A stretch of 64,000 nt of DNA from Candidatus Woesearchaeota archaeon (GTDB lineage: Archaea > Nanobdellota > Nanobdellia > Woesearchaeales > ARS49): assembly GCA_016215315.1 (NCBI GenBank), contig JACRKG010000011.1:537-64536 (forward strand), written 5' to 3'. Positions 7,853-51,811 of the stretch are shown here, piece by piece; positions within the stretch are counted from its first letter, which is position 1; each line of letters begins with the position of its first letter. Below the pieces are notes generated by a model. That model did no database searches. It saw nothing but the letters and a program-made list of their open reading frames with translations, and was not told where the DNA came from. The position numbers were made by a program, and so were the translations under genes.

Positions 7853-7931
7853 AGCTTATAGTTAATGGTTTGCAGCGATAAACTCATCTGCCATCCGACA
7901 CCTAGTAAAATTTACGGTACCGACCGATGCC
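7853..7931. repeat. intergenic repeat-family copy plus conserved 47-nt leader motif (CCATCCGACACCTAGTAAAATTTACGGTACCGACCGATGCC)
   Basis: AGCTTATAGTTAATGGTTTGCAG resembles the GTTTATAGTT..CAG family. The downstream motif is about 85% identical to 49097..49150. Confidence 0.5.
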
Positions 7932-9666: not shown

Positions 9667-11286
9667 ATGGAAATAGAACCAGAATTACTAATAGCGCATG
9701 GTTTTGTAAAAAAAGAAGCAAAAGACAAGTATAAAGGCAAAACTCCTGAAGAAATAAAAGAATTTATTGTCAAATTAAAAAAAGAGAAAGGAACAAAAGA
9801 AGTTCTCAAACAATTAGCTGAAGACGCTGAATCTGACATGATGGAATTAGCAAAAGACCAAATGGTCCAAGTATTTTATCCAAAACCACTAAACAAATAT
9901 CACTTAATTTATGAAAATTTTAATACAAGCCTTGAACCAATATATTTTTGGGCATTAAATCATTTACAAACTGACTTGGGTTTTCCTAACGTTTACAAAC
10001 TAACAGACATTTTCAGCGCATCAGAACATAGTAGTTTTTACGGAGCAGCAGGACAAAGACTAGCACTCGCTCAAGACAATGTACAAAAATATTTAGCACT
10101 AATAGGCCAATTTGTACGAAACGACTTATTCCAATTAGTTAGAGATATTAAATGGATAAAAGAAAGATTAAGATATCATGAAGATTCACAAAAAGGATTA
10201 GATGCAGCAGAAATGACATTAAAAGGAATCTGGGTTGACTTAATTGATGGAAAAGTACAAGGACAACCAGTAAGCGCAAACGTCTTCCAAATGGCTCAAC
10301 AATTACAATTCACCGCACTTCCAGATTTCTTTTTCGGAGTAAAACCAAAAAAAATAGAAGATCTCGACAAAGAAGTTGACAAATTAGGAATAAGCCTTCC
10401 AGTAAAAAACGTTCTAAAAAGAAAACTACACCAATACATGATTTGGAAAGAAGAAAACTTCAAAGAATTAAGACAAAGAGAACTATTCGAACTAAAATAC
10501 TTAAGACAACACTATAACATACTAAAAATGTACTTAGCATGGGTAAAACCATACTTACAACACGCAGAAAGACTAAGAGAAGACTTATCAAAAACATCAA
10601 GCGCAGACCTCATCGCATCATTTGAAGGAAGCCTAATAGATATAGAAATAATGGGCACAGCAATACCCGAAGGAAACAAAGAATACTACGCATGTATATT
10701 ACTCAGTTTTAATTACAGAACAAAACCAAGCATGGACTACTCAGACCCATCCAGATACCACCGAGGACCGGTACACGTAGGAGAAACAACAGTCACTTGG
10801 AGAGCATACGCTTGGAACGATGAAGATATTCAAAAATTCATGAATTACAAAGAAAAACAAGACTTAATGAGTCTAGCAGAAGTAGACAACACAGTAAAAG
10901 CAACAATTGATGCAATAGGAGAAGACTTATGGAAATACCTAGGTGAAGCAGAAGAAAAAATTCCTTACAGCGAACAAGAAATAAGCGACATAGCAGGAAA
11001 AACAGGACTCACAAGAGAAGAAGCAAAATTATTATTAGAAAGAAAAAAACCACAAGAAGCACCAAAAAAACAAGGATTCTTCGAACCATTCACGGCCATA
11101 GGAAAAGGCTTTGGAGAAATATTTAGTTTCAGCCTGCCAAAAGGAACAGGAAGCAGCGCAAAAGAAGCAGCAAAGAAAGCCGCAAAAAAAGATAAAGAAA
11201 AAAAAGCAGCAGAAGGCATGGCAAAAAAATTACTCTGGGTACACTACGAAAACTTCAAGAAAACACACGGAATGACGACTTGGTAA
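9667..11286 (+). CDS. hypothetical protein (539 aa) with Lys/Ala-rich C-terminal tail
   Basis: Long ORF with strong coding periodicity. No motif recognised. Confidence 0.5.
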   Translation: MEIEPELLIAHGFVKKEAKDKYKGKTPEEIKEFIVKLKKEKGTKEVLKQLAEDAESDMMELAKDQMVQVFYPKPLNKYHLIYENFNTSLEPIYFWALNHLQTDLGFPNVYKLTDIFSASEHSSFYGAAGQRLALAQDNVQKYLALIGQFVRNDLFQLVRDIKWIKERLRYHEDSQKGLDAAEMTLKGIWVDLIDGKVQGQPVSANVFQMAQQLQFTALPDFFFGVKPKKIEDLDKEVDKLGISLPVKNVLKRKLHQYMIWKEENFKELRQRELFELKYLRQHYNILKMYLAWVKPYLQHAERLREDLSKTSSADLIASFEGSLIDIEIMGTAIPEGNKEYYACILLSFNYRTKPSMDYSDPSRYHRGPVHVGETTVTWRAYAWNDEDIQKFMNYKEKQDLMSLAEVDNTVKATIDAIGEDLWKYLGEAEEKIPYSEQEISDIAGKTGLTREEAKLLLERKKPQEAPKKQGFFEPFTAIGKGFGEIFSFSLPKGTGSSAKEAAKKAAKKDKEKKAAEGMAKKLLWVHYENFKKTHGMTTW

Positions 11287-11288
11287 AA

Positions 11289-11325
11289 GGTTTGTAGTTT
11301 ATAGTTTACGGTTCATAGTAAACTA
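11289..11325. repeat. intergenic repeat-family copy (GGTTTGTAGTTTATAGTTTACGGTTCATAGTAAACTA) with small hairpin
   Basis: Abuts the stop of 9667..11286. Contains TAGTTTAC/GTAAACTA inverted repeat. Confidence 0.6.
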
Positions 11326-15166: not shown

Positions 15167-15601
15167 ATGAAATTCATGTACGATTGGAAAGACACGAAAA
15201 AACTTTACTGGAAAGAAGATTTTCCATACTCGGGAAACTTAGCAACACTTGCTGAAACGTATTCAAAAAATTCTCTAAGACCAAAAATCAGTAAAAAGGC
15301 ATTACTCGAAAAAATGCTTGAACAAGACAAAGAATAATTCTTTTTTCTTAGTTCATCAATAATAGTTTATTTAAAGGTATTTTCTTTACAAGAGCTTTAT
15401 GCCTCATACAGAAAAGCTTTAGCAATTTATGCAGACACAAATTTTGATCGTGAAATAAGTGAAGAAGAAAAAAATGCATTTAACAAAAAAATGTATGCAG
15501 AAAACAACCTAACAATAATAGAAAAAAATAGTCCAAAACAACACTGGACTTGAAGTAACAATAGAAGACTTGTTAAAAATATTAGAAAAATACCAGAATT
15601 A
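15167..15601 (+). pseudogene. decayed tandem paralogue of the downstream gene 15607..16143 (in-frame TAA at 15335 plus a frameshift near 15525)
   Basis: 56-aa ORF, then a 71-codon open frame in the same phase after one stop. Contains [21 protein letters not shown], matching ADTNFDHNISEKEKNDFNQKM of the intact copy. C-terminal segment readable only after a frame change. Confidence 0.45.
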
Positions 15602-15606
15602 AAAAA

Positions 15607-16143
15607 ATGACATTCATACCAAAAGATCAAATCGAGGAATTTTTAACTAAACAGGAAAGTCAAGACGTAATTGAAAAAACAGAAGGTCCTAAAAATCAAC
15701 CTGAAGAAACTTCAATTTATCAAGGGAATAATAATCAAAGAAATAATCAAAGACCTGAACCTGATTTAACTGATTATACTGACAAACAAAGCGAAGACCT
15801 GCGGACATGTATGCCTGTAATTGCAGTACTTCTGGCATTCGCAGGATTTATTTACTGGGCAGAGGGGAGAAAAATAGAGAGGAATAAAAAAGAAGAAAAC
15901 AGTTTACAGGAGTACAAATATCTTTATATGAACGCTTCAAATTTACATGCGAAAGCTCTAGTATTACACGCAGACACTAACTTTGATCATAACATAAGTG
16001 AAAAAGAAAAAAACGATTTCAACCAAAAAATGTGCGGAAGAAATAACGTAACAATCATTGATGGAAAATTTATTCAAAACAGCACAGGTCTTGAATTAAC
16101 AATAGAAGAACAAATAAAAATATTAGAACAGTACCAAAACTAA
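15607..16143 (+). CDS. hypothetical single-pass membrane protein (intact copy of the duplicated family)
   Basis: Central TM helix VIAVLLAFAGFIYW. C-terminal domain homologous to the upstream relic. Confidence 0.5.
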   Translation: MTFIPKDQIEEFLTKQESQDVIEKTEGPKNQPEETSIYQGNNNQRNNQRPEPDLTDYTDKQSEDLRTCMPVIAVLLAFAGFIYWAEGRKIERNKKEENSLQEYKYLYMNASNLHAKALVLHADTNFDHNISEKEKNDFNQKMCGRNNVTIIDGKFIQNSTGLELTIEEQIKILEQYQN

Positions 16144-23345: not shown

Positions 23346-23434
23346 AGAAAGATTCTATCAATTACCTGATTTGTGTTTCACCAACGCCACAATCTTTATA
23401 AAAACCAATTTTCTTGTTCTATAAAGGTGATATT

Positions 23435-23599
23435 ATGAGTTTAGTAATTAGAACAAAGCTTAAAGAAGTAGCTCAAGGATTTAATATTTCCAGTGATTTT
23501 GCTGACACATTAGATAAGAAAGCAGAAGAATTAGTTAAGTCTGCTTGTGAAAGAGCTAAAGCAAACGGAAGAAAAACAGTAATGTCCAAGGATTTGTAA
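23435..23599 (+). CDS. archaeal histone-fold protein, C-terminally truncated (54 aa; alpha1-L1-alpha2-L2 only)
   Basis: Aligns to HMfB: DTLDKKAEELVKSACERAKANGRKTVMSKDL vs ARITLAKILEEMGRDIASEAIKLARHAGRKTIKAEDI. Stops where alpha3 should begin. The stop lies at the junction with an intergenic repeat copy. Confidence 0.5.
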   Translation: MSLVIRTKLKEVAQGFNISSDFADTLDKKAEELVKSACERAKANGRKTVMSKDL

Positions 23600-23601
23600 A
23601 A

Positions 23602-23633
23602 GGGTTTGAAGTTCACAGTTTATAGTTTGTAGG
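23602..23633. repeat. intergenic repeat-family copy (GGGTTTGAAGTTCACAGTTTATAGTTTGTAGG)
   Basis: Same family as 28381, 36512, 11289, 49061. Confidence 0.6.
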
Positions 23634-23639
23634 ACCTGA

Positions 23640-23800
23640 AGCGGTCGGAACATTAACGCCGCTGCGCGGAAATTGATAACTGCTAAATTATTCGCGTGCA
23701 CTCGCAGAATTTTTTTATTTCTTCTGGATTCATGATGCTGCCGCCACCCACAGTAAAGAACTATGCAAGCACACAATTCTCGGCGGCCTGAGCTCAGAAA
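23640..23800. other. GC-rich structured island in intergenic DNA: candidate small ncRNA (possible C/D-box-like element 23731..23795)
   Basis: Local GC about 50% vs about 30% background. Complementary segments: GCGG/CCGC, GCTGCCGCC/GGCGGC. ATGATGC ... CTGAGC about 60 nt apart. Confidence 0.25.
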
Positions 23801-24339: not shown

Positions 24340-24954
24340 TTAATTTTTTCCACCGTAAACTAGTATTAGCCCAACAATTGACAGAACAACACTAAATCCA
24401 ATTATGTGCAAGAAAAAGTATTGAAAGAACATTTGATTAAAAACTTGCACCATTACATAATTACCTGGAAACTGCCATTGATCAAATGCAAGCATTTCAT
24501 GAAATTTTGTGAACAAAAAATTAAAAGGCAGAATTGCTAATAACAAAATCATAACTAAATTAAGAATACTTCCATAAAAAATGATTACTCGATTTATCCT
24601 AAAAGTATAAACGAGTACCAAAATCAAAAACAAAACATTTAGCATAAACATTTTATCTCTTACCTCAAACATATGACTTACTTCTTCTTGCTGAAAGCCT
24701 TGAATGAAGTTAGTTTTGTACGTTAAGTAATCAAGTGTTTTTTGCCCATATTCTTGAGCTTGAGGATGAGCGTTGCTAAGTTCAAACAATAAATTATAAA
24801 ATTGAGCATTAAACGTCAAAAGAAACGCACTCAACAATAAAAGAAATAATGGAAAAACGATAATCAAAAATAAATCCTTCGTGCTTGCAAACTTTCGCCC
24901 CAAAACCATAAACCACAAACTACCAACATTTTTCTTACTTAATCTTTGCGCCAT
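24340..24954 (-). CDS. hypothetical integral membrane protein (5-6 TM)
   Basis: Hydrophobic helices. 20-nt overlap with metG stop. Confidence 0.5.
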   Translation of the reverse strand: MAQRLSKKNVGSLWFMVLGRKFASTKDLFLIIVFPLFLLLLSAFLLTFNAQFYNLLFELSNAHPQAQEYGQKTLDYLTYKTNFIQGFQQEEVSHMFEVRDKMFMLNVLFLILVLVYTFRINRVIIFYGSILNLVMILLLAILPFNFLFTKFHEMLAFDQWQFPGNYVMVQVFNQMFFQYFFLHIIGFSVVLSIVGLILVYGGKN

Positions 24955-27656: not shown

Positions 27657-28262
27657 GTGAAGCAATTAATTAGCAAAAATAACAATATTTGGGTATCTAG
27701 CTCTTTAGAAGAAGAGGTTTTACGAGAAAAAATCCTTAATTGTGACGCCGTTCTGAGTGATTTAGATGACACAGACACTAATCCTACCGCACCAATAATA
27801 ATTAGACAAGGAATTAAACGGTATTTTTACCGCCCTGAATTTATTACTTGGTGGATGAAATTAACAATCACAAACCAAATACTAAACCGAAGAGAACAAA
27901 GCGATGCATGGAAATTATACTCAAGCAAATTTATTGATGCAAAAGAAAGAAAAAGAATTAGAAAACAATTGACACCTCAAAGAGTGAATGACTTGTTATT
28001 TCCTGGAGTTAAAGAATTTTACTCTCTAATTACACCAGCATACAAAACTTATGTTACACGAAATCTTTACGAAGTTGGCGATGCTTTTGGATGCGTTCTG
28101 GGATTTGATGAAATTATTAGCGGTGCAAGAAATAAAGAAATCGCAGCAGCAGAATTTATTAATGCCCATCCTCAATTTAGAAAGTACTTAGTGAAAGGTG
28201 ATTCTCATCACGACGAAGGAATGATTGATGCGCTTAAATTCTACCAAAAAAAGGCAAAATAG
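27657..28262 (+). CDS. HAD-superfamily hydrolase-like protein
   Basis: DLDDT (motif I DxDxT) and GDSHHD (motif IV GDxxxD). Confidence 0.4.
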   Translation: MKQLISKNNNIWVSSSLEEEVLREKILNCDAVLSDLDDTDTNPTAPIIIRQGIKRYFYRPEFITWWMKLTITNQILNRREQSDAWKLYSSKFIDAKERKRIRKQLTPQRVNDLLFPGVKEFYSLITPAYKTYVTRNLYEVGDAFGCVLGFDEIISGARNKEIAAAEFINAHPQFRKYLVKGDSHHDEGMIDALKFYQKKAK

Positions 28263-28380
28263 ATTACGTTTTAGGAATATGGGTTTCTAAAACACCAACA
28301 GATAGAGCAAAATTCGACGTAAATATTGGACAAAATTATACTGGATTGGTTGAACTATTAAAGAAAAAAAGCCAGTAACT

Positions 28381-28446
28381 AGTTTATAGTTTGCAGTTTA
28401 TGGTTCACAGTCGTCCTATAAACTTCAAACTGTAAACTACAAACTT
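28381..28446. repeat. intergenic repeat-family copy forming a long imperfect hairpin
   Basis: AGTTTATAGTTTGCAGTTTATGGTTCACAG-N8-TATAAACTTCAAACTGTAAACTACAAACT. Arms are reverse complements with a few mismatches. Lies immediately 3' of tRNA-Pro. Confidence 0.7.
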
Positions 28447-28449
28447 AAA

Positions 28450-28524
28450 TGGGATCGGGGAGATTTGAACTCCCAATCTCACCCACCCCAAGGGTGAATC
28501 TTAACCAAGTTGGACTACGACCCC
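28450..28524 (-). tRNA. tRNA-Pro (anticodon GGG)
   Basis: Reverse complement GGGGTCGTAGTCC...CACCCTTGGGGTGGGTG...GGGAGTTCAAATCTCCCCGATCCCA: 7-bp acceptor, T-arm GGGAG/TTCAAAT/CTCCC, anticodon loop TTGGGGT. Confidence 0.85.
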
Positions 28525-28527
28525 AAA

Positions 28528-29679
28528 TTAAACAAAACTAACTTCCATTTCTAGTGCATCCCTTGTGGGATATTCTTCAACTACTGCCGGGATTAAGTTT
28601 TGTTTTTTTAAAAAACAAGCGTGTTTTTTTAGCAAACGTCTGTCTGTGATTAATCTTAATTTTACTTCGTCAACAAAAATTAAATCTTCAGATATTTTTA
28701 ATTGTGCTATTAATTTTTGTCTTAATTCTTCTAAAATTGGTAAGTACTTTTTTTTGTCTGCTTGTTCTAGTTTTTGTCTGTAGTTTAGTCCGGGGGTTAG
28801 TTCTGGTAAATAAATTGCTCCGCGGATTATTGTTCCTTCGTCAGTTACTTGGTCAAAACTTTTCTTAATGTTCTTTGCTCTTCGTTTTATTCTATTCTTT
28901 AATTGAACATTGTCTTTTAGTTTTGCAGTGCAGAAGTAAAGAGTCAATCCTGCATTTTTTGCTTCTTTCAATATTTCTAGTGCTAGTTCTGCGCTTCCTT
29001 TGACTGCGTAAGATAATTGGTTTTTTAGCATAAAACCTCTGCTTAAGTATTCACAATCATTTCTTTCTGACCATTCTAATTCATTCAAGTTTAGGAATTT
29101 TACTTTTTCTTTCATAAAATCTACCAGTTCTAGAATTTCTTTTTTCATTCCCGGAATACAAGGTATTTCTATGCCTACATCCCAATCATATTTTCTTGCC
29201 AATTCTATTTGCGGCCATAAAGTTTTGTCATATAGGTTTGCGTGAAATCTTATCTCATCAAGACCTGCTTCGTACAATTTTTTTAATCTTTCTTCATTGA
29301 CTAATCTGAAAGTAGTGTACAAGTGTGCATGAAATTTTTTGCCGAATTCTTTTTTTAAAAGCCTTAAGTACTCACAAACTCGGTCAACAACCACTAAAGG
29401 ATCTCCTCCAGTGATTCCTACTCCTTTTGCTTCAGTTAATCTTGCTTCTTCAAGAAGGTCTTCTGGTTTTTCTATCTTCCATTCATTTGCATAAATTACA
29501 TCTTTGTTTATTTTTTTATCACTTACAGGACAATAGAAGCATTTTAGTCCGCATAAACCCGTAATGAATAATACTAATTTTTGGCCTTTAATGCAATACT
29601 CGCATCCTTTGGCCATCCTTCCTTTAACTAAAGAAAAACATCCTGTATCGACAATGTTTTGAGCGGCTAATAATTCCAT
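28528..29679 (-). CDS. radical SAM domain protein (PflA-like activase fold) with long C-terminal extension
   Basis: CGLKCFYCP (CxxxCxxC) cluster motif, GGDP SAM-binding glycine motif. Confidence 0.75.
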   Translation of the reverse strand: MELLAAQNIVDTGCFSLVKGRMAKGCEYCIKGQKLVLFITGLCGLKCFYCPVSDKKINKDVIYANEWKIEKPEDLLEEARLTEAKGVGITGGDPLVVVDRVCEYLRLLKKEFGKKFHAHLYTTFRLVNEERLKKLYEAGLDEIRFHANLYDKTLWPQIELARKYDWDVGIEIPCIPGMKKEILELVDFMKEKVKFLNLNELEWSERNDCEYLSRGFMLKNQLSYAVKGSAELALEILKEAKNAGLTLYFCTAKLKDNVQLKNRIKRRAKNIKKSFDQVTDEGTIIRGAIYLPELTPGLNYRQKLEQADKKKYLPILEELRQKLIAQLKISEDLIFVDEVKLRLITDRRLLKKHACFLKKQNLIPAVVEEYPTRDALEMEVSFV

Positions 29680-29768
29680 AAGAATCAATATTTATTGCTT
29701 ATTTAAAAAAGTATTTACTGAACGCAAATAATCTAAAGTAGTTTATTTAAAGCTATCTTGCTTTCTAT

Positions 29769-30269
29769 TTGTTTATGGAAAATAAAAAATTCAAAAGACA
29801 AGATCTTAACAAATTAGAAGAAGTCGAATTACTAACATCAACAGTAGAACAAGAACCAACAGTTGAAGTATTTTCTCCAACAATAGAAAAAACACATTTG
29901 CAAAAAGTTTTGAAAGTTGTCAGAATGAGTTTGATGTACTTAAGTATTGGTGCTGCTTTTTATGGAGTTGTAGCTTACGCTCCTAAAGTTGCAGAAGTTG
30001 GAATTAGAAATGATCAAGTAAACAGTGAATTCAAGAGTGTTTATGACAACACAAGTTCAAAATACGCAGATACAAACAATGACGGAGTTGTTTCATCTCA
30101 AGAAATGGATTCTTTTGATAGCGCTTTCTTAACAAGCAATGGTTTTAAAGTTAGTGGAGAAGAAAGAATAAATCTAAAGTACGGCCCAATGCCTTACATG
30201 AAAGGAACTTTTGAAAGAGCACAGAAGGAAACTATCACTGAATTGTTAAAGAATTACCAGCCAAAATAA
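29769..30269 (+). CDS. hypothetical membrane-anchored protein
   Basis: One TM helix (MYLSIGAAFYGVVAY). Confidence 0.4.
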   Translation: MFMENKKFKRQDLNKLEEVELLTSTVEQEPTVEVFSPTIEKTHLQKVLKVVRMSLMYLSIGAAFYGVVAYAPKVAEVGIRNDQVNSEFKSVYDNTSSKYADTNNDGVVSSQEMDSFDSAFLTSNGFKVSGEERINLKYGPMPYMKGTFERAQKETITELLKNYQPK

Positions 30270-30307
30270 ATTATTAGAAAAATATCAGCCTCAATAAAAT
30301 CAAACTA

Positions 30308-31327
30308 TCAAGTCTTATTTAGTTTTTGTTCTGCTCCTTTTTTATAATCATCAAGAAATTTCATGTTATTAGAAACATATTCATATATAGTATTCACGAA
30401 AAAACCCATTGCTTGAGTTGCTTCTTCAAATTCTAGATCATTCATCATAATGCAATAAAATATTCTGCTAGCCTTAATATACATTATACCACAACTATGC
30501 AAGTATTTATTCTCTCCCTCATATTTTACTCCGAATTTTTGAGAAACTTTAACTTCAGGAGGTAAATTTGCAATTTTTTTTATGTCAAATACGGTGTTTG
30601 AAAGAAGGGATAAAATATACTCGGAATCTTGTGATTCAAGAATGGTAGATAAATAAATACTAGAAAAAACATTGTAGAATGATTTGGGTGTTGCAAGACC
30701 AGTGTCATAATCTTGGCCTGGTTTTGTTTTATTAATACTATCTTCAGTGTACATATCAAGATAACTAAAAATGAAATTTGCATCTTTAGGTTTTAGAATT
30801 TTGCTCAGCGCTCTAAAAGCAGTATCATCTGATTCTTGCAACATTTTTTCTAGAAGAACTTTCACGCTAAGTTCTTTATCAGTAGTTTTGTATAATGTTC
30901 CAAAATTAGCAGTTCTGTCTGAATCTTCTATTTTAATCAAATCATCAAGACCTATTTTACCTTCTTCTTTCATTTTCAGCACAAGTACCGCAGCTAAAAC
31001 TTTAACTAAGCTAGCAAAAGGATATCCTGTTCTTTCATTTATTCCTATGGAGGCACCATTTCTTAAGTTTTCAACATAAATTGAAGCAGTGAAGTTATTT
31101 TCTTGCATGAAAGACTCAAAAATCTTTTTCAAAGGAACATAATTAGTTATTAAAAAACTCTTAGGTTCTAACACTCCTGCAGCTATTCTGGGAGAAATAA
31201 AAGTAAAATCTTCTTTATTTGATTCAATAAAAGAATAATTATTGAAACAAATTATTGCAAGAAAAGACAAAAGCACTAGAATTAATATCAACTCAAAAAC
31301 TGCCACCCGTTTTAGATTAAATCTCAT
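30308..31327 (-). CDS. class A beta-lactamase-like serine hydrolase, membrane-anchored
   Basis: N-terminal TM. FASLVK contains S-x-x-K. Later SDN-like and KTG-like region. Confidence 0.55.
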   Translation of the reverse strand: MRFNLKRVAVFELILILVLLSFLAIICFNNYSFIESNKEDFTFISPRIAAGVLEPKSFLITNYVPLKKIFESFMQENNFTASIYVENLRNGASIGINERTGYPFASLVKVLAAVLVLKMKEEGKIGLDDLIKIEDSDRTANFGTLYKTTDKELSVKVLLEKMLQESDDTAFRALSKILKPKDANFIFSYLDMYTEDSINKTKPGQDYDTGLATPKSFYNVFSSIYLSTILESQDSEYILSLLSNTVFDIKKIANLPPEVKVSQKFGVKYEGENKYLHSCGIMYIKASRIFYCIMMNDLEFEEATQAMGFFVNTIYEYVSNNMKFLDDYKKGAEQKLNKT

Positions 31328-31410
31328 TCAACCCTGAAATAAAACACCCACATTTAAATCTTAGTTTTAGCTAAGAAACATTTTTAAATCTGGATTCGTT
31401 TTGGATTTTT

Positions 31411-32892
31411 ATGACTGACAAAAAAGGCTCTAAAGCAAATAAGCAGGACAATTTTAGTGAGTGGTATTCTCAGATTTGCGGTGAAACTGGAGCTAAGCTT
31501 GTTGATTTAAGGTATGATGTTCAAGGTTTTATTGTTCATCGCCCTTGGAGTATGCGAGTTTTAAGAAAGATTTATTCTTTTTTTGAAGAAGAAGTCGAGA
31601 AAGACAATCATGAACCAATGTTATTTCCAACAGTTATTCCTGAAGAACATTTATTAAAAGAAAAAGAACATGCAGGTTTTACTCCTGAAGTTTTCTGGGT
31701 CGAGTATGCGGGAGATAAAAAGTTAGAAAAACGATTAGCATTAAGACCTACTGGAGAAACACAAATTTATCCATTGTATTCTTTATGGATTAGAAGTTAT
31801 AATGATTTGCCTTTGAAAGGTTATCAATCTAGAATTACTACTTTTAGAAATGAAATGACTACGCGTCCTTTTTTGAGGGGCAGAGAATTTATGTTTTTTG
31901 AAACTCACGATGTCTTCGAAACCCACGACGAAGCCGTTTCTCAAATAAAAAAAGATTTAATCATGATGAAGAACACGATTCGTGATAAACTAAAAATTCC
32001 TTTTTTATTTTTCCAAAGACCTAAATGGGATGTATTTAAAGGAGCTGATGAAACTTTCACTTCAGACAGCATTCTTCCTGATGGTAAAAGAATTCAAGTT
32101 AGCAGCACTCATGATTTAGGGCATAATTTTGCTAAAGCATTTAATGTCCAATTTGTTGGAAAGGATGGAAAAAGAAGTTATGCTTTCCAGACTTGTTTTG
32201 GGCCTGGTATTTGGAGAATTTTTGGAACAATGATTGCAATTCACGGGGATGACCAAGGATTAATGCTTCCTTTCTGTGTTGCACCAGTGCAAGTTGTAAT
32301 TATTCCAATAACTTTTGTTAAAGATCCTGAAGCTAGTAAAAAAGTTCTTGAGCTTTCCAAAAAATTAGAAAGCGAACTAAAAAATTTAAATTATTCTGTG
32401 CTTGTTGATTTAACTAATAAAACTCCCGGTTTCAAATTTAATGAGTGGGAAATGAAGGGAGTTCCTATAAGAATAGAAATAGGTCCTAGAGATTTAGAAC
32501 AAAACCAAGTAACTGTTAGCGCTAGAACAAGTAAAGAAAAATTAGCAGTAAAAATTAATGAATTAAAAAATAAATTACCTGAACTTGCAGAACAAAACGA
32601 TAAAGTTTTAGAAGAAACCGCAATCAAATATTTCAAAGATAATATTAAAAATGCAAAAACTCTTGACGAAGTCAAGAGTATAATTAAAGACCATCGTGGT
32701 TTTGTAAGAATTCCTTTCTGCAGTGTTATGCTTGATGGCAAGAAGTGTGCCGAGAAATTAAAAACAGAAACTAACGGTGTTGACGTTTGCGGATTCTTAT
32801 TTGAAAAAGAAGAAAAATTAGCTAGTTCTGATACGTGCGCTGTTTGCGGAAAGAAAGCAACAAAGATAGTTTATGCTGCTAAGAGTGTTTGA
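31411..32892 (+). CDS. proS: prolyl-tRNA synthetase, archaeal/eukaryal type
   Basis: Class II motifs, C-terminal zinc-binding domain with CxxC...C. 493 aa. Confidence 0.9.
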   Translation: MTDKKGSKANKQDNFSEWYSQICGETGAKLVDLRYDVQGFIVHRPWSMRVLRKIYSFFEEEVEKDNHEPMLFPTVIPEEHLLKEKEHAGFTPEVFWVEYAGDKKLEKRLALRPTGETQIYPLYSLWIRSYNDLPLKGYQSRITTFRNEMTTRPFLRGREFMFFETHDVFETHDEAVSQIKKDLIMMKNTIRDKLKIPFLFFQRPKWDVFKGADETFTSDSILPDGKRIQVSSTHDLGHNFAKAFNVQFVGKDGKRSYAFQTCFGPGIWRIFGTMIAIHGDDQGLMLPFCVAPVQVVIIPITFVKDPEASKKVLELSKKLESELKNLNYSVLVDLTNKTPGFKFNEWEMKGVPIRIEIGPRDLEQNQVTVSARTSKEKLAVKINELKNKLPELAEQNDKVLEETAIKYFKDNIKNAKTLDEVKSIIKDHRGFVRIPFCSVMLDGKKCAEKLKTETNGVDVCGFLFEKEEKLASSDTCAVCGKKATKIVYAAKSV

Positions 32893-33021
32893 AACTTTGG
32901 AAAATCAACTCATTCTAAAAAAGGTCAAAAAATGCCTATTTTTGAAACAACACAAAAAAAACAGAAAAATATTTAAGCTTTAAAAGAAAGTAAATAGTTA
33001 AAAAGATAAAAGGGTGAAAGA

Positions 33022-34542
33022 ATGATAAAAAGAGTTAATATATATATATATATAATATTATTTTTGATTCTCGTTGCTGGTGTTTTAGCAGCACCGCTGC
33101 CAACTGTTAATGGAGATTCTGGTACTTGGGGCACAATACTTAATACATTTCTAGGTGTTTCTTTAGCAAGTGATGGAACTTTAAATTCTAATGTTGTTGG
33201 TACTGCTCAAATAACTGATGGAGTAATTACGACAAGTGATATTAGTGCTACAGCAGGCATAACAAGCGGACAAATCGCAGACGGAACAATCACTACAGAC
33301 GACATCGCCACAGACACTATTGCTGCAGCAGACATCGCAGCAGGAGCAGTTGGAACTTCAGAAATCGCAGACGGAGTCATCACAACAACAGACATTAGCT
33401 CCTCAGCAGGAATCACAAGCGCACAAATCGCCGATGCTACTATTGCCAATGCAGATATTAGCACTAGTGCTGCCATTGCTTTAAGTAAATTAGCTGCCGG
33501 AACTGACGGACAAATAATAGTTGTAGGTGTTTCTACGACCACAGTTCCTGCTTATGCAACAATGAGTGGCGATGCAACATTAAGCAACCTAGGAGCACTA
33601 GCAGTTTCAGATGACAGTCATGCGCATACTGCAAGCACAATTTCAGGACTTGGCACAGATGATATTTCTGGATTAAGTGCTGCCGATTTAAATGCTGACT
33701 TCGGCGACTTTACATGTACTGGAAGTGCAGCGGGTTGCACTGTGGATGCTAATGCTGTTGCTTTAGGTACTGATACTACTAATAACTATGTGGCTACTGT
33801 TGCGGATAGTGGTGCTGGAATATTTACTGTTTCAGGTAGTGGTTCTGAAAGTGCTACTGTAACTCTCGCCATCACTGCTGATATGATTGATGGTACTGAA
33901 TTGAAAGATTCATTGGCTCTTGATGCTGCTACAACGATTACTGGCACTACTGCTGGTGTTGGTTTAACTATAACATCAAACATTAACGCTGCTGCACTGA
34001 CTGTTACTAACGCCAATGTAGGGGGTTCTGTACTATCTCTCACTAGCTCTGGTGGTGGAACGTTACTATCTGCTCAAGGCGCTTGTTATGACGGCAATCT
34101 TGCAACTTGTGTTTTAAATGATTACGCAGAACTTTATCCAGCTAGTGAAAGTGTTGAACAAGGAAGTTTGGTATCAATTGATGATTCAAAAGAAGACTTA
34201 TTTGTTAAGACAACAAGAAAAAGTTATGATACTTCAGTTATAGGAATAGTGTCTACAAGTCCTGCCATAGTTATTGAAGGGGGCGCAATTAAATTAATGG
34301 GCGGAATTTATGCTCACAACCCTTTAAAACCTGCAATAGCTATGGCTGGAAGAGTTCCAGTAAAAGTAACTAATGAGAATGGACCCATAAAACCAGGAGA
34401 CTTGCTTGTTCCAAGCTCAACACCAGGTTATGCAATGAGATGTCCTGGAAGATTAGAGTGCATAGGAAGTGTTGTTGGAAAAGCATTAAGGCCGTTTAAA
34501 GAAAAAGAAGGCAAAGTTTTAGCATTAGTGATTAATAGCTAA
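33022..34542 (+). CDS. secreted surface protein with tandem about 20-aa tail-fibre-like repeats and a C-terminal beta domain
   Basis: Signal/anchor MIKRVNIYIYIILFLILVAGVLAAP. At least six repeats of the form ITTxDIxxxAGITSxQIADGxI. GC-rich codons (Ala/Thr/Gly). Confidence 0.6.
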   Translation: MIKRVNIYIYIILFLILVAGVLAAPLPTVNGDSGTWGTILNTFLGVSLASDGTLNSNVVGTAQITDGVITTSDISATAGITSGQIADGTITTDDIATDTIAAADIAAGAVGTSEIADGVITTTDISSSAGITSAQIADATIANADISTSAAIALSKLAAGTDGQIIVVGVSTTTVPAYATMSGDATLSNLGALAVSDDSHAHTASTISGLGTDDISGLSAADLNADFGDFTCTGSAAGCTVDANAVALGTDTTNNYVATVADSGAGIFTVSGSGSESATVTLAITADMIDGTELKDSLALDAATTITGTTAGVGLTITSNINAAALTVTNANVGGSVLSLTSSGGGTLLSAQGACYDGNLATCVLNDYAELYPASESVEQGSLVSIDDSKEDLFVKTTRKSYDTSVIGIVSTSPAIVIEGGAIKLMGGIYAHNPLKPAIAMAGRVPVKVTNENGPIKPGDLLVPSSTPGYAMRCPGRLECIGSVVGKALRPFKEKEGKVLALVINS

Positions 34543-34543
34543 A

Positions 34544-35470
34544 ATGAAAAAAATATTTTTTGTTTTATTAATTATCTTTTTGATTCCTGTAGTTTATGCG
34601 GGAGCATATGGTGCCGGTGCTTACGGTGCGGGAGATTATGGTGTTGGAGAGGCCGCTGCATCTCCTAGCACGACTAGTGAATCAAGAACAACAACAGAAA
34701 CAACTACGGAAGATACTGGAAGATTTGATCCTAAATCTTATCTTGGCTTTGTTGCAAATTTTATTGCTCCTGGAAGCATTGCAGAATTGAGTAAAACAAA
34801 TAAAATAACTAAGACAGTAACTGCAATTAAAGGCAGTTTAGATTCTGTTGTTTTATTCAGGTTAAATGCTCAAACACACACAGTTATGTTGGATAAAGTT
34901 GATGAGCAAACTAAAACTGTTTCGTTCATTTTAGCTTCGGAGCCTCAATTTTTTAGTTTGAAAGAGAATGAAAAAATGCAGTTTGATTTAGATGGAGATT
35001 TATTTGCTGAGACTGAAGTTTCTGCAGGCAACACTAATTATAGTAAATTAAGTACTGATGTGAGTATTTCTTGGGTAGAAAACCAGACAATGATAACGAC
35101 AGTTACAAAGCAAGAAAGCGAGACACCCTCCACTAAAAAAGAGATAACACCAGGCACAGAACTAAAAATTTCAGAAACAAAAAAAACAGAAACAATTACA
35201 GAACTAAAGAAGGAAGAATTAAAATTACAACCAAAAGATTTTGTATCTTTCAAAGAATTCTTTGAAAGTGCTAAAGAATCTCTCGAAAATGTTAAAACAC
35301 TTTTCGAGAAATTCACGAACAAGATTTTTGATGAAATAAAAAAACATCCAGAAGTAAATATGCTCATTCTAGAAATTGCTTCAGGAGTTGCCGTTTTTGT
35401 ATTAGTAATAACATTTGTATTGTTCAAAAGTCATCGCAAGAAGCGTAAAGAAAGAGTACAAGAAATATAA
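34544..35470 (+). CDS. surface-anchored protein: signal peptide, GAYGAG repeats, Thr-rich linker, C-terminal TM anchor
   Basis: Starts 2 nt after the previous stop. AGAYGAGAYGAGDYGVG repeats. C-terminal helix then KSHRKKRKER. Confidence 0.55.
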   Translation: MKKIFFVLLIIFLIPVVYAGAYGAGAYGAGDYGVGEAAASPSTTSESRTTTETTTEDTGRFDPKSYLGFVANFIAPGSIAELSKTNKITKTVTAIKGSLDSVVLFRLNAQTHTVMLDKVDEQTKTVSFILASEPQFFSLKENEKMQFDLDGDLFAETEVSAGNTNYSKLSTDVSISWVENQTMITTVTKQESETPSTKKEITPGTELKISETKKTETITELKKEELKLQPKDFVSFKEFFESAKESLENVKTLFEKFTNKIFDEIKKHPEVNMLILEIASGVAVFVLVITFVLFKSHRKKRKERVQEI

Positions 35471-35484
35471 ACCGTTAAGAACTA

Positions 35485-35874
35485 TCAATAATTTTGAACT
35501 TTTATTCCACGTATTCTTTTGAAATGTTCTTGATTTCTAGTTACAACTATATCCACGCCTTTACTCAGAGCAATTCCCGCAGTCAAACAATCACAATCCG
35601 AAATTTCTTTCCCGGATTTTATTAATTCTGCAGATATTTCAGCTGATTTTATGATTGAATTATTATCCAAAGAGAGCACTCTTAAATCTTCAAAAACTTC
35701 CATAACTTCTCTTAATTTAGGCAGAGACATTCCTCTCAAAAATAATCCTCTCATTAATTCATACATATTTATCTGAGTGGTAAGCAATGGACTTTTTGAC
35801 TCAATTAATTTAAGTGCATCTTCATTTCCTCTTGACAAATCAATTAAAAAAGTGGTGTCTAAAACTTTCATCAT
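35485..35874 (-). CDS. vapC: PIN-domain ribonuclease toxin VapC
   Basis: MKVLDTTFLIDL with conserved acidic residues of the PIN fold. 129 aa. Confidence 0.75.
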   Translation of the reverse strand: MMKVLDTTFLIDLSRGNEDALKLIESKSPLLTTQINMYELMRGLFLRGMSLPKLREVMEVFEDLRVLSLDNNSIIKSAEISAELIKSGKEISDCDCLTAGIALSKGVDIVVTRNQEHFKRIRGIKVQNY

Positions 35875-36101
35875 AACCTCGATCTAATCATTTTTATATT
35901 TTTGGATCTTATTTTTTTCAAATCTTCAAGCATCTTTTCTCCTTCTGTTTCGGATATTATTCCAAACAAATCTTTCCAAGTTTTTGCTTCTTTTTTAGAA
36001 AAAACTCGAACTATCTCCTCTGAAAAACTTTCATTTTCAAATTTATTATTAAAAAGCAAGCCATATGAATCTTCAGTGATTGTTATAGTTTTTGTTGTCA
36101 T
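35871..36101 (-). CDS. vapB: VapB-type antitoxin (76 aa)
   Basis: MTTKTITITEDSYGLL N-terminal DNA-binding beta-strand motif. 4-nt overlap with vapC. Start at the internal Met. Confidence 0.5.
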   Translation of the reverse strand: MTTKTITITEDSYGLLFNNKFENESFSEEIVRVFSKKEAKTWKDLFGIISETEGEKMLEDLKKIRSKNIKMIRSRL

Positions 36102-36206
36102 AAACATACGTGTATGTTTACTTGTATATAAACTTTTCGTGCCTTTAAAAACTATCTTCAATAAGCAAGAAAAGCTTAAATACCCATTTTTCTTTTTGTA
36201 TGTATT

Positions 36207-36509
36207 GTGAAAATAACCATCGATACTAAGTTGGATTCAAAAGAGGAGATAAGGAGAGCTGTTGAATTATTAAATAATTTAATGGGAACTAGGAATAGTT
36301 CTGAGCACAGAAATATTTTTGATGATAATACTTCTTCCAGTGTTAGCAATCCTCTCAACATGTTCGATACTAGTAATTCGAGTCCTCCACCAAGTAGTTC
36401 TAGTAGTTCATCAAATGCGTTTAATTCTATGTTTAATAATGAGCCTGAATTAAAAGAAGAAAAGAATGATGACAATGATGATTCAGTTCCTGAGATAGAA
36501 TTCTACTAA
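36207..36509 (+). CDS. hypothetical Ser-rich acidic protein
   Basis: Low-complexity (SSPPPSSSSSSS), acidic C-terminus. Confidence 0.35.
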   Translation: MKITIDTKLDSKEEIRRAVELLNNLMGTRNSSEHRNIFDDNTSSSVSNPLNMFDTSNSSPPPSSSSSSSNAFNSMFNNEPELKEEKNDDNDDSVPEIEFY

Positions 36510-36511
36510 AA

Positions 36512-36588
36512 TAGTTTATAGTTCACAGTTTATGGTTTATAGGTCAATAAGTTTTTTACTGTAAACTCCGAACTACAAACTATAAACT
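36512..36588. repeat. intergenic repeat-family copy forming a long hairpin between convergent genes; abuts both flanking stop codons
   Basis: AGTTTATAGTTCACAGTTTATGGTTTATAGG-N17-CTGTAAACTCCGAACTACAAACTATAAACT. Confidence 0.7.
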
Positions 36589-36589
36589 T

Positions 36590-36913
36590 TTATTCTAAAT
36601 CTAGAATGTATCCGTCGTATTTTTCGTTAAAGTATAAATCAATTAGTGCTTCTACTGCTTCTAATTGTCCGTGAAGTTCTTCTATGTTGCTTATTGCTTT
36701 GGATACTCTTCGCGAGGCAAGTGCGAATTTTTCTTTTTCGTTAATTGTAGGTGTTGCTGGTGCCACTATTTCACTCAAAGTTTTTCCTGAAGAATAATTT
36801 TTTTTCAGAACACTGTATTCTCTTAAAACAGTTGCTATGTATGCAATATCACTTTTTACTGGTTTTAGTGCTTTGACGATGCTCTTTTGGAGACCGTCAA
36901 GTTCATCAGCCAT
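36590..36913 (-). CDS. hypothetical alpha-helical protein at the distal end of the ribosomal/RNAP cluster
   Basis: 107 aa, no CxxC. Not RpoN/RpoK-like. Confidence 0.45.
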   Translation of the reverse strand: MADELDGLQKSIVKALKPVKSDIAYIATVLREYSVLKKNYSSGKTLSEIVAPATPTINEKEKFALASRRVSKAISNIEELHGQLEAVEALIDLYFNEKYDGYILDLE

Positions 36914-36914
36914 T

Positions 36915-37310
36915 TTATCTGTAGCTTTTTTGTCTTTTTGATCTTGCTTTACCGTGAGTGTTTGGCTTTCTACTTTCTCTTTGCCTTACATCCGGAACTA
37001 ACAAAGTTCTATCATAATCTAAGAATTGTTGGCGTAATTTTTTGTTGTGTTCTGCTAAAACTTTTGATACTGCAACTCTTATAGCATCAGATTGGGAGCT
37101 CATTCCTCCGCCAGAAACGCTTACTTGAATATTAACTTTACTTGCTGTTTCTCCTGCAATTTGTAGTGGTTCTTTTATTTTATCTTTATACATTTGAGTA
37201 GAATAATTTTCTAGTAATTGTGAATTAATTCTAACTATTCCTGTGCCTTCGCTTAGTGTTGCTCTTGCGATTGCTTTTTTTCTTGTTCCTACTTCATGAA
37301 TTACTTTCAT
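36915..37310 (-). CDS. rps9: 30S ribosomal protein S9 (uS9)
   Basis: Conserved uS9 core and basic C-terminal tail ...KARSKRQKSYR. Confidence 0.9.
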   Translation of the reverse strand: MKVIHEVGTRKKAIARATLSEGTGIVRINSQLLENYSTQMYKDKIKEPLQIAGETASKVNIQVSVSGGGMSSQSDAIRVAVSKVLAEHNKKLRQQFLDYDRTLLVPDVRQRESRKPNTHGKARSKRQKSYR

Positions 37311-44059: not shown

Positions 44060-44206
44060 TTTTTTATTAAAGGAAAGTTTTAATTAACAATAACAAAATA
44101 AATATTTCCATCAAAAAGATCAAAATCATCATTGAGTCTATGTGATGTTTGTTGCAAAATGTTTGTACTCGTCGATAAACTTGAATCATACCACACATTT
44201 AGCACT

Positions 44207-44325
44207 AATTCTTTATATGTTTTTCTAGAAAGATTTCTCAGAAAAGTGAGAAATTTTTCCAAAAAAATGAGAAAATTTCTCAAAAAATGGAAATATTTTC
44301 CAAAAAATTAGAAAAAATTTACTGA
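44207..44325. repeat. about 110-nt repeat element copy 1: TTCTTTATATG-TTTCTAGAAA plus 4-5 units of 21-nt period built on palindrome GAGAAATTTCTC
   Basis: Near-identical copy at 51671..51770 in direct orientation. Confidence 0.7.
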
Positions 44326-44344
44326 ATTGAATTAGACTTATTTT

Positions 44345-49060: not shown

Positions 49061-49150
49061 AAATTTACGGTTTGTAGTTCACAGTGAAAAACTCAGCGGC
49101 CATTCGACACCAAGTAATATTTTGATACCGAAATGATGTCTCGGACGGCA
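49061..49150. repeat. intergenic repeat-family copy (AAATTTACGGTTTGTAGTTCACAG) plus conserved 47-nt leader motif
   Basis: CCATTCGACACCAAGTAATATTTTGATACCGAAATGATGTC matches 7891..7931. Imperfect stem GCCATTCGA / TCGGACGGC. Confidence 0.55.
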
Positions 49151-51770: not shown

Positions 51771-51811
51771 GAGAATTCTTCAAGTACAGAGAATTTTGCG
51801 AAGCAAAATTC

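What the first reader, a model, noticed from the sequence alone, without database searches (positions are those of the whole stretch)
28381..28446. Family of A/T-rich palindromic intergenic repeats (core GTTTATAGTTCACAGTTTATGG) at six or more gene 3' ends
Copies at 7853..7884, 11289..11325, 23602..23633, 28381..28446, 36512..36588 and 49061..49085. The two long copies (28381, 36512) are inverted duplications that fold into 25-30-bp imperfect hairpins. All sit downstream of stop codons, mostly between convergent genes. Candidate bidirectional terminators or a miniature repeat element (MITE/REP-like) of this lineage.
Basis: seen in the sequence. Interest (0 to 1): 0.7.

Follow-up and report, generated by a model that had tools for sequence, protein, structure and literature searches.

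The report
Heptamer repeat arrays after stop codons
Short runs of a repeated 7-base unit sit directly after the ends of several genes in this small archaeal genome; they are real and far from random, but they belong to a known, poorly understood class of simple 7-base repeats and are not a new mobile element or a classical terminator.

Summary
All six cited sites hold the motif, and I found one more degenerate copy at 24899-24928(-). The element is not a palindrome. It is a tandem array of about four heptamers, RGTTYRY, followed by AG (about 30 nt). The two "long palindromic copies" are two such arrays on opposite strands. Each one abuts the 3' end of one of two convergent genes (one of them is tRNA-Pro).

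- **Position:** eight of nine arrays start 1-7 nt after a same-strand gene end (P about 1e-11).
- **Lineage:** the window is Woesearchaeota-like (DPANN archaea).
- **Turnover:** a syntenic relative (about 85-90% nucleotide identity) lacks arrays at four orthologous gene ends. It has a six-unit array at the MetRS end, where the window has a degenerate one. More distant relatives (188 kb) have none.
- **Wider distribution:** the same degenerate heptamer forms arrays in many bacterial phyla and in viral contigs, only 2-3 times more often than composition-matched controls.

Verdict: a new archaeal member of the known class of heptanucleotide simple-repeat arrays. They possibly substitute for oligo-T terminators. 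They are not MITE or REP elements and not classical hairpin terminators.

The parts
11289..11318 (+). Array GGTTTGT AGTTTAT AGTTTAC GGTTCAT AG. It starts 2 nt after the stop of gene 9667-11286(+), in a 45-nt convergent spacer.
23603..23632 (+). Array GGTTTGA AGTTCAC AGTTTAT AGTTTGT AG. It starts 3 nt after the stop of the 61-aa histone-fold gene 23414-23599(+), in a 256-nt convergent spacer.
28381..28410 (+). Array AGTTTAT AGTTTGC AGTTTAT GGTTCAC AG. It starts 2 nt after the true stop (28376-28378) of the frameshifted HAD-like gene. It is the 5' arm of hairpin 28380-28439.
28416..28445 (-). Array AGTTTGT AGTTTAC AGTTTGA AGTTTAT AG on the minus strand. It starts 3-4 nt after the 3' end of tRNA-Pro(GGG) (28449/28450). 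It is the other hairpin arm.
36513..36542 (+). Array AGTTTAT AGTTCAC AGTTTAT GGTTTAT AG. It starts 3 nt after the stop of gene 36207-36509(+). It is the 5' arm of the second hairpin. The loop 36543-36558 holds a T6 run.
36559..36588 (-). Array AGTTTAT AGTTTGT AGTTCGG AGTTTAC AG on the minus strand. It starts 1 nt after the stop of gene 36590-36913(-), the last gene of the ribosomal-protein/RpoD operon.
49062..49084 (+). Three-unit array AATTTAC GGTTTGT AGTTCAC AG. It starts 1 nt after the stop of the DUF1858/Fe-S-assembly gene 48371-49060(+). The block that follows (49089-49122) is shared with site 7853.
7853..7875 (+). Degenerate three-unit array AGCTTAT AGTTAAT GGTTTGC AG in a divergent intergenic region, not at a real gene end. 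It is homologous, together with its downstream block (7880-7913), to site 49062.
24899..24928 (-). Degenerate array TGTTGGT AGTTTGT GGTTTAT GGTTTTG, 6 nt after the MetRS stop (24935). The orthologous position in relative L152 holds a six-unit array.

Best explanation
These are lineage-specific heptanucleotide simple-sequence-repeat arrays, about four copies of RGTTYRY plus AG. They are not copies of a mobile element. They arise and are remodelled in place by gain and loss of 7-nt units (slippage) plus transitions. They persist only in one position: the first ~30 nt after a gene's 3' end, in the sense orientation, so they would be transcribed as a G/U-rich start of the 3' UTR. Where two convergent genes each carry one, the two arrays are complementary and the transcript from either strand can fold into a 23-27 bp hairpin that fills the whole spacer. 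I think the most likely role is a non-canonical 3'-end module that stands in for the oligo-T terminators used at other gene ends in this genome. It would limit read-through into the convergent neighbour and protect the 3' end. Shown here: the array anatomy, the position and orientation, the hairpin potential, the turnover between relatives, and the near-exclusivity with T-runs. Inferred: slippage as the generating process, transcription of the arrays, and any termination or protection activity.
For: Anatomy: across 34 units, GTT at positions 2-4 is 33-34/34 invariant. Positions 1, 5, 6 and 7 vary, mostly by transitions (39 against 8 transversions). All strong period-7 arrays in the window are of this type. 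Position: 8 of 9 arrays start 1-7 nt after a same-strand gene end; P about 1e-11 given random placement in the 8% intergenic space, and P about 4e-5 using only three sites that I regard as not forced by short spacers. One array follows a tRNA, so the link is to transcript ends, not to translation. Turnover: L152 is syntenic at about 78-90% nucleotide identity, and the alignment blocks break exactly at the arrays. It has no array after the 107-aa gene, the 100-aa gene, tRNA-Pro or the HAD gene. It has a six-unit array 2 nt after the MetRS stop, where the window has a degenerate four-unit one; the more distant L155 has none there. In 188 kb from relatives with 35-67% S9 identity (mostly 50-67%) there are no arrays. 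Terminator substitution: a T>=4 run lies in the 3' spacer of 2 of 7 array-bearing ends against 25 of 31 other ends (Fisher p=0.014); for T>=5 it is 1/7 against 17/31 (p=0.06). In L152 the orthologous ends after tRNA-Pro and the 100-aa gene carry T6 runs. Hairpins: z -4.8 to -7.9 on both strands. Generality: (RGTTYRY)4AG arrays occur in at least 119 loci of GTDB species genomes across many phyla. In those loci 30 of 54 same-strand upstream gene ends lie within 10 nt, against 2 of 47 in antisense. An inverted partner is seen only downstream (17/130, against 0/130 upstream). Literature: the G-rich heptamers of Xanthomonas and Nostoc show a four-unit preference, lie within 0-50 bp of the stop on the coding strand, form inverted pairs, and vary fast between close relatives (PMC4692102).
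Against: There are no 3'-end or expression data. The arrays contain at most three consecutive U. In M. maripaludis, aCPSF1 did not bind RNA whose U-tracts were cut to U3 (PMC8716108). Loss at four orthologous sites in a close relative shows the arrays are dispensable. Eight of 17 convergent junctions in the window have spacers of 14 nt or less or overlap (my count), so this genome tolerates gene ends with no dedicated signal at all. The deficit of T-runs may partly reflect arrays filling short spacers. Three of the four single arrays have no predicted structure. One copy (7853) is not at a gene end. Heptamer arrays in general are common: composition-matched control patterns gave 59, 32 and 42 loci in IMG/VR against 108 for the true pattern. 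In the viral set, adjacency to gene ends is seen in both orientations (19/50 sense, 28/52 antisense). In the Saccharibacteria locus L007 the perfect arm is antisense, inside a co-directional operon. Two pairs of near-identical strains showed no unit-number difference, so slippage is not directly observed.
Confidence: 0.45

Rival explanations
1. The arrays are functionless by-products of polymerase slippage on 7-nt units. They accumulate just past stop codons and between convergent genes only because those are the few positions in an 8%-intergenic genome where 30 extra bases disturb no promoter, ribosome-binding site or reading frame. The hairpins are an accident of two arrays meeting.
For: Heptanucleotide repeats are reported as the commonest long simple repeats in prokaryotes and are attributed to slippage (Mrazek 2007, as summarised in PMC4679880, and PMC4692102). 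Control heptamer patterns are only 2-3 times rarer than the true pattern. Close relatives differ in presence or absence and in unit number. No function was found for the best-studied heptamers. Arrays are almost never within 10 nt of gene starts but are often next to gene ends, also for a control pattern.
Against: Pure tolerance does not predict sense orientation for all five single or degenerate post-stop arrays in this lineage, or the 30-to-2 orientation bias in the genome set. It does not predict a start within 1-3 nt of the stop in spacers of 116 and 256 nt. It does not predict strict conservation of GTT with purine/pyrimidine class kept elsewhere, or units within an array being nearly all different rather than homogenised. 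It does not predict the excess of exactly four units (81/130; also reported by Rehm et al.), or the deficit of T-runs at array-bearing ends.
Confidence: 0.33
2. The hairpin copies are REPIN- or MITE-like mobile elements, with the inverted arrays acting as terminal repeats. The single arrays are decayed half-elements. They would be spread by a Y1 (RAYT or IS200/IS605-type) or other transposase encoded elsewhere in the genome.
For: The pattern of doublets plus singlets at gene 3' ends resembles REPIN and REP elements. Relatives differ in presence or absence at orthologous sites. Sites 7853 and 49062 share about 75 nt including flanking sequence, so at least one array was copied together with its neighbourhood. 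Relative L152 encodes a Y1 transposase. Saccharibacteria L007 and the Prevotella loci carry near-identical array hairpins, which look like dispersed copies.
Against: Copies are not near-identical: only 3 of 6 lie within 3 mismatches of the 22-mer. The two hairpins share neither loop nor flanks. I saw no target-site duplication. Single arrays are not palindromes. tblastn with the L152 Y1 protein finds nothing in the window (E>2). That transposase is flanked by its own unrelated CCCCGACCTTYAGGTCG hairpins, and L152 has fewer arrays, not more. At the MetRS site the two genomes differ in unit number, not by insertion or excision.
Confidence: 0.1
3. The arrays are double-stranded DNA binding sites, a 7-bp iterated operator or a TATA-like decoy for TBP or a chromatin protein, and they act on transcription initiation or chromosome organisation.
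For: Many units contain TTTATA, the archaeal TATA core (direct reading of the sequence). Three units span 21 bp, two helical turns. Two copies lie upstream of plus-strand genes (7853 and 49062).
Against: Most copies lie between convergent genes, where no promoter is needed. No purine-rich BRE-like sequence precedes the TTTATA cores (direct reading). The distances to the next start codon (74 and 115 nt) do not fit promoter geometry. Strict sense orientation relative to the upstream gene is not expected for a duplex-binding site.
Confidence: 0.07

Closest known systems
Heptameric intergenic simple repeats of Xanthomonas (GGGAATC) and Nostoc PCC 7120 (GGGGAYT) (Rehm et al. 2015, PMC4692102); more generally the heptanucleotide 'long simple sequence repeats' of Mrazek et al. 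2007
   Same: A 7-nt unit in tandem arrays, strongly intergenic. A preference for four units. [quoted passage not shown] Some copies form inverted pairs able to make stem-loops. Extensive length and sequence change between close relatives. No link to insertion sequences. No known function.
   Different: The unit here is A/T-rich with single G residues, so it cannot form a G-quadruplex, which was the explanation offered for the four-unit preference. The host is a DPANN archaeon, not a bacterium. Units within an array are almost always non-identical.
Cyanobacterial STRR (short tandemly repeated repetitive) heptamers CCCCAGT, TTGGTCA and CAACAGT (Mazel et al. 1990; cited from my own knowledge and mentioned in PMC4692102)
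   Same: Tandem heptanucleotides dispersed in intergenic DNA, with a lineage-specific distribution. In the register used here, STRR3 reads AGTCAAC and STRR1 reads AGTCCCC, so they share the AGT start.
   Different: Different units, often longer arrays, restricted to cyanobacteria. Adjacency to stop codons is not part of the STRR definition.
TAACTGA direct repeats of marine Beggiatoaceae, Cyanobacteria and some Bacteroidetes (MacGregor 2015, PMC4679880)
   Same: Heptamer arrays of 2-6 copies, intergenic, with a patchy cross-phylum distribution and orientation tied to the neighbouring gene. The reverse complement in this register is AGTTATC, which shares the AGTT core.
   Different: In BOGUAY most copies lie a few nt upstream of start codons, suggesting translational control, not after stop codons. 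The unit is invariant rather than degenerate.
REP/BIME elements and REPINs with their RAYT transposases
   Same: Short elements at gene 3' ends and between convergent genes. Inverted doublets that form hairpins, plus single copies. REP elements are known to stabilise upstream mRNA (my own knowledge).
   Different: A REP unit is itself an imperfect palindrome with high copy identity and a cognate Y1 transposase. Here the unit is an internal tandem repeat, the copies are diverged, and no RAYT gene lies in the window.
Archaeal U-tract terminators read by aCPSF1/FttA (PMC8716108)
   Same: U-rich signals within a few tens of nt after gene ends, and several tracts in series raise efficiency. In this window, arrays and oligo-T runs tend to be alternatives at gene ends.
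   Different: The defined signal needs tracts of at least four U. The arrays offer only UUU (or UU in the C-containing units), repeated every 7 nt.

Membership tests
Heptanucleotide simple-sequence-repeat arrays (LSSR / STRR-like) | Head-to-tail tandem copies of a 7-nt unit, three or more copies | tested here: met
   A regex and a scoring scan give 3-4 units at nine places. TRF reports period 7 at five of them.
Heptanucleotide simple-sequence-repeat arrays (LSSR / STRR-like) | Over-represented relative to chance and confined to non-coding DNA | tested here: met
   Nine arrays against about 0.07 in shuffles. All lie in the 8% of the window that is intergenic; only the degenerate copy touches a predicted start. 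The genome-wide count could not be tested.
Heptanucleotide simple-sequence-repeat arrays (LSSR / STRR-like) | Unit number and sequence change between close relatives (slippage dynamics) | tested here: met
   At the MetRS 3' end there are about 4 degenerate units in the window, 6 units in L152 and none in L155. Arrays are absent at four other orthologous ends in L152. Near-identical strain pairs show no change.
Heptanucleotide simple-sequence-repeat arrays (LSSR / STRR-like) | Close to the upstream ORF's stop, on its coding strand, with four units preferred (features reported by Rehm et al. 2015) | tested here: met
   Eight of nine arrays start 1-7 nt after a same-strand gene end. Six of nine have exactly four units. 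Paper.
REP / REPIN with RAYT | Each unit is an imperfect palindrome with a conserved head, and copies are highly similar | tested here: not met
   Three of the four single arrays fold no better than shuffles; one forms a weak 7-8 bp hairpin (z -2.8). Only 3 of 6 sites lie within 3 mismatches of the 22-mer.
REP / REPIN with RAYT | A cognate Y1 (RAYT) transposase gene in the genome, flanked by the repeats | tested here: inconclusive
   None found in the 64-kb window by tblastn with the L152 Y1 protein. The L152 Y1 gene is flanked by unrelated hairpins. The rest of the genome was not available.
MITE | Terminal inverted repeats around a conserved core, with target-site duplications and near-identical dispersed copies | tested here: not met
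   The two hairpins have different loops (5 nt and 16 nt, unrelated) and their flanks are simply the two stop codons. I saw no duplication. Four copies have one arm only.
Bacterial-type intrinsic (bidirectional) terminator | A G+C-rich stem-loop followed directly by a U-tract | tested here: not met
   The stems are A/U- and G-U-rich. No T-run follows either stem on either strand. The terminator scan of 28000-37000 did not list them.
Archaeal U-tract terminator (aCPSF1/FttA-assisted) | One or more tracts of at least four consecutive U within about 30 nt before the transcript 3' end | tested here: not met
   The arrays contain at most UUU. Only 2 of 7 array spacers hold any T>=4 run. The U3 variant was not bound by aCPSF1 (PMC8716108).
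Archaeal U-tract terminator (aCPSF1/FttA-assisted) | Transcript 3' ends map at the element | not testable with these tools
   No RNA data are available for this organism.
Integron attC site | An imperfect palindrome after a cassette ORF with a 5' RYYYAAC and a 3' GTTRRRY core, in a cassette array next to an integrase | tested here: not met
   The arm order is the reverse (GTT-type arm 5', AAC-type arm 3' on both strands). The units read GTTYRYR, not GTTRRRY. The neighbours are housekeeping genes 3-13 kb apart.
Any Rfam RNA family | A match at the family's gathering score | tested here: not met
   The whole window gives only two tRNAs. E-value searches of five array regions give only sub-threshold noise. 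Eight array-bearing loci from other taxa give nothing.

The most novel reading that the evidence does not exclude
(RGUUYRY)x4, placed 1-7 nt after a stop codon or tRNA 3' end, would be a dedicated 3'-end formation signal that does not depend on U4 tracts and is read in a 7-nt register by an RNA-binding protein (for example a heptameric Sm-like ring, or a KH or S1 protein). The same '4 x 7 nt just past the stop, on the coding strand' architecture in the G-rich heptamers of Xanthomonas and Nostoc would then reflect one cross-domain mechanism and not G-quadruplex formation.
Probability: 0.1. Interest if true: 0.8.

Novelty: new member of a known kind. Interest (0 to 1): 0.4.

Why it matters
Heptanucleotide arrays are the commonest long simple repeats in prokaryotes, yet nobody knows why seven bases, why about four units, or why they sit just past stop codons. 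This window adds an archaeal (DPANN) case whose unit cannot form a G-quadruplex but keeps the same architecture. That weakens the only structural explanation offered so far. The arrays also tend to replace oligo-T runs at gene ends, which gives a concrete, testable hypothesis. On the practical side, these arrays create long hairpins between convergent genes. Annotators could mistake them for terminators, MITEs or small RNA genes.

Tried and rejected
- **Rfam:** the gathering-threshold search of the whole window, E-value searches at five sites, and eight foreign loci gave nothing relevant.
- **A general GTTT or AGTT signal downstream of stops in this lineage:** not seen once the arrays are set aside, and not seen in relatives.
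- **Arrays as spacers between the stop and a canonical hairpin-plus-T-run terminator in bacteria:** 6 of 124 arrays against 20 of 372 random positions, so no enrichment.
- **Stop codons in all three frames as the purpose of a 7-nt period:** in the window arrays the TAG triplets often fall in the same frame or are replaced by CAG or TGG, so this was rejected on direct reading.
- **Integron attC similarity:** arm order and core sequence do not fit.
- **A link to IS200/IS605 ends:** the L152 transposase hairpins and the GC-rich element at 23640-23682 share nothing with the arrays.
- **TATA/BRE promoter reading:** no BRE, and the geometry is wrong.
- **The small ORF 7865-7960 (31 aa, four Cys) overlapping array 7853:** the homologous block at 49062 is interrupted by stops, so the shared block is probably non-coding.
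- **A cross-phylum 'universal' RGTTYRY family:** downgraded after control patterns proved only 2-3 times rarer.
- **Orientation bias:** clear in the genome set but not reproduced in viral contigs.

Full report
**What is there.** The window is 30-37% G+C. Reading the six cited sites shows that the shared feature is not a 22-nt palindromic core. It is a tandem run of 7-nt units with the consensus RGTTYRY (AGTTTAT, AGTTCAC, AGTTTGT, GGTTTAT and so on), usually four units closed by AG, about 30 nt in all. The quoted 22-mer matches only three of the six sites within three mismatches, with none expected by chance. A strict regular expression and a scoring scan (three units, at least 19 of 21 positions) recover all six sites. 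They also recover two reverse-strand arrays at 28416-28445 and 36559-36588, and one degenerate reverse-strand copy at 24899-24928. Markov shuffles give about 0.07 hits per window. Over 34 units, positions 2-4 (GTT) are 33-34/34 invariant. Positions 1, 5, 6 and 7 vary freely but mostly within the purine or pyrimidine class: 39 transitions against 8 transversions relative to AGTTTAT. TRF shows that the strong period-7 arrays of the window are all of this type.

**The palindromes.** They form 23-27 bp imperfect hairpins of -22.7 to -28.5 kcal/mol, with z from -4.8 to -7.9, on either strand. They are best described as two arrays in opposite orientation. Each starts right after its own gene end:
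- 28381(+) starts 2 nt after the stop of a HAD-like gene.
- 28445(-) starts 3-4 nt after the 3' end of tRNA-Pro.
- 36513(+) starts 3 nt after the stop of a 100-aa gene.
- 36588(-) starts 1 nt after the stop of the last gene of the ribosomal-protein/RpoD operon.

The HAD-like gene appears to end at 28262, but comparison with the intact 258-aa orthologue in L152 shows a frameshift at an A-run. The real stop is at 28376-28378. Of the single arrays, one has a 7-8 bp hairpin (z -2.8) and three fold no better than shuffles. Structure is therefore not the family's common property.

**Position.** Using a greedy ORF map corrected for the small histone-fold gene, the frameshift and the two tRNAs, 8% of the window is intergenic. 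Eight of nine arrays start 1-7 nt after a same-strand gene end. Given random placement in intergenic space the probability is about 1e-11. It is about 4e-5 if only three sites that I judge not to be forced by short spacers are counted. The exception is 7853. It lies between divergent genes and, with about 50 nt of downstream sequence, is a diverged copy of the 49062 region.

**Organism and relatives.** The neighbouring genes are archaeal: L18e, L13, S9, RpoD, ProRS, MetRS and a histone fold. Named homologues of the radical-SAM gene are from Woesearchaeota and Nanoarchaeota.
- L001, a contig from SRR12113407, is 99.97% identical and differs only in an (AT)n run.
- L152 (GCA_053530895.1) is syntenic at about 78-90% nucleotide identity. 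The alignment blocks break exactly at the arrays.
- In L152 there is no array after the 107-aa gene, the 100-aa gene, tRNA-Pro or the HAD gene. T6 runs follow tRNA-Pro and the 100-aa gene instead.
- L152 does have a six-unit array 2 nt after the MetRS stop, where the window has its degenerate copy. The more distant L155 has none there.
- Thirty-one metagenome loci with 35-67% S9 identity (188 kb) contain no array.

The arrays are therefore young, labile and lineage-specific. At the one shared site they differ in unit number, which is what slippage would produce and not what insertion or excision would produce.

**Mobile element?** The tests I could run argue against it. Copies are not near-identical, and the two hairpins share neither loop nor flank. 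I saw no target-site duplication. No Y1 transposase is encoded in the window. The Y1 gene in L152 is an IS200/IS605-type unit with its own unrelated hairpins. The one sign of copying is the 7853/49062 pair.

**Terminator?** The hairpins do not meet the bacterial definition. The stems are A/T-rich, no T-run follows them, and the terminator scan does not list them. They also do not meet the archaeal U-tract definition. The arrays never exceed UUU, and aCPSF1 failed to bind a U3 variant in M. maripaludis (PMC8716108). Even so, arrays and oligo-T runs behave as alternatives. A T>=4 run lies in the 3' spacer of 2 of 7 array-bearing ends against 25 of 31 other ends (p=0.014). For T>=5 the figures are 1/7 against 17/31 (p=0.06). 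The orthologous ends in L152 point the same way. This is the basis for my preferred reading, a non-canonical stand-in for oligo-T terminators. The evidence is weak: the sample is small, and arrays leave little room for T-runs in short spacers.

**Beyond this lineage.** By my own estimate for uniform base composition, chance would give about 0.5 hits. The loci come from Bacteroidota, Acidobacteriota, Patescibacteria, Cyanobacteria, Firmicutes, Planctomycetota, Verrucomicrobiota and one Thermoplasmata archaeon. In these loci:
- 30 of 54 upstream same-strand gene ends lie within 10 nt of the array, against 2 of 47 in the antisense sense.
- 81 of 130 arrays have exactly four units.
- An inverted partner occurs only downstream (17/130, against 0/130 upstream).

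Controls temper this picture. In IMG/VR the true pattern hits 108 loci, but three composition-matched patterns hit 59, 32 and 42. In the viral set, adjacency to gene ends appears in both orientations. Heptamer arrays as such are therefore common, and this unit is only modestly favoured.

**Literature.** Mrazek et al. (2007) found heptanucleotides to be the commonest long simple repeats and proposed polymerase slippage as the cause (summarised in PMC4679880). Rehm et al. (PMC4692102) described GGGAATC and GGGGAYT arrays in Xanthomonas and Nostoc. Those arrays are intergenic, prefer four units, lie within 0-50 bp of the stop on the coding strand, include inverted pairs, and vary strongly between close relatives. 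No function was found. MacGregor (PMC4679880) described TAACTGA arrays, which read AGTTATC in this register, mostly upstream of start codons. A search of the paper library for six tandem two-unit strings of this motif found nothing relevant.

**Verdict.** The 'palindromic repeat, MITE or bidirectional terminator' reading is only partly right. The element is a new archaeal member of the known class of heptanucleotide simple-repeat arrays. What it adds is a non-G-rich example with the same four-unit, just-past-the-stop architecture, and a hint that such arrays substitute for oligo-T terminators. Identity as simple-repeat arrays: high confidence. Terminator-substitute function: low to moderate confidence.

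Noticed in passing
window 27657-28378: The HAD-like gene is split over two reading frames at an A-run (about 28248-28262), whereas the orthologue in L152 is an intact 258-aa protein. This is either a sequencing or assembly error in a homopolymer, or a real frameshift.
   Followed up: yes
window 23640-23682 (-); L152 1946-1991: A 46-nt G+C-rich element (CAGTTATCAATTTCC.CGCAGC..GGCGTYAATGTTCCGACC) is 89% identical between the two genomes but sits at different loci. In the window it lies next to array 23603. In L152 it lies in the spacer where the window has the 36513 hairpin. It has no Rfam match and may be a small RNA gene or a relocating element.
   Followed up: partly
window 7880-7913 and 49089-49122: A block of about 34 nt, 85% identical (AAACTCA.C.GCCATYCGACACCWAGTAAWATTT), follows the arrays at 7853 and 49062, both upstream of plus-strand genes. 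It is coding-like in one copy (31-aa ORF 7865-7960) but interrupted by stops in the other. No structure is predicted.
   Followed up: partly
window 44194-44335 and 51657-51776: Two blocks, 89% similar over 73 nt, hold a TTTATATG box followed by palindromes ATTTCTCAgaaaaTGAGAAAT repeated every 21 bp. They look like a shared promoter and operator for two small-gene loci, one of them next to a Schlafen-AlbA_2/HATPase_c_4 gene.
   Followed up: no
window 33038-33058: An (AT)n run differs by one unit from the 99.97%-identical contig L001. It is the only difference in 6.3 kb.
   Followed up: yes
L152 11232-12260 and 17128-17556: Relative L152 has a duplicated tRNA-Pro 3' end bracketing about 1 kb of extra DNA, which looks like an integration footprint. 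It also has an IS200/IS605-type Y1 transposase flanked by CCCCGACCTTYAGGTCG hairpins. Neither is present in the window.
   Followed up: partly
L150 (Ga0180007_10006673), whole locus: An 11-kb metagenome contig is packed with other heptamer arrays (AATGGAA, CGGAATC, GACCAGY, AACAATC, ACTACYC). Several occur as inverted pairs about 70-100 nt apart. It shows the same architecture with unrelated units.
   Followed up: no
L010, L012, L046, L070 (Prevotella MAGs); L007 (Saccharibacteria MAG): In Prevotella, (RGTTTAC)4 arrays flank a core that begins ATGATTAC and ends GTAATCAT, followed by an inverted array. In L007 there are three near-identical (AGTTTGT)4 hairpins within 3 kb of a co-directional operon. 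These look more like dispersed copies of one element than the window's arrays do.
   Followed up: partly
window 15413-15602 and 15952-16143: Two adjacent stretches of about 190 nt are 76-78% identical, which suggests tandemly duplicated small genes or gene ends.
   Followed up: no
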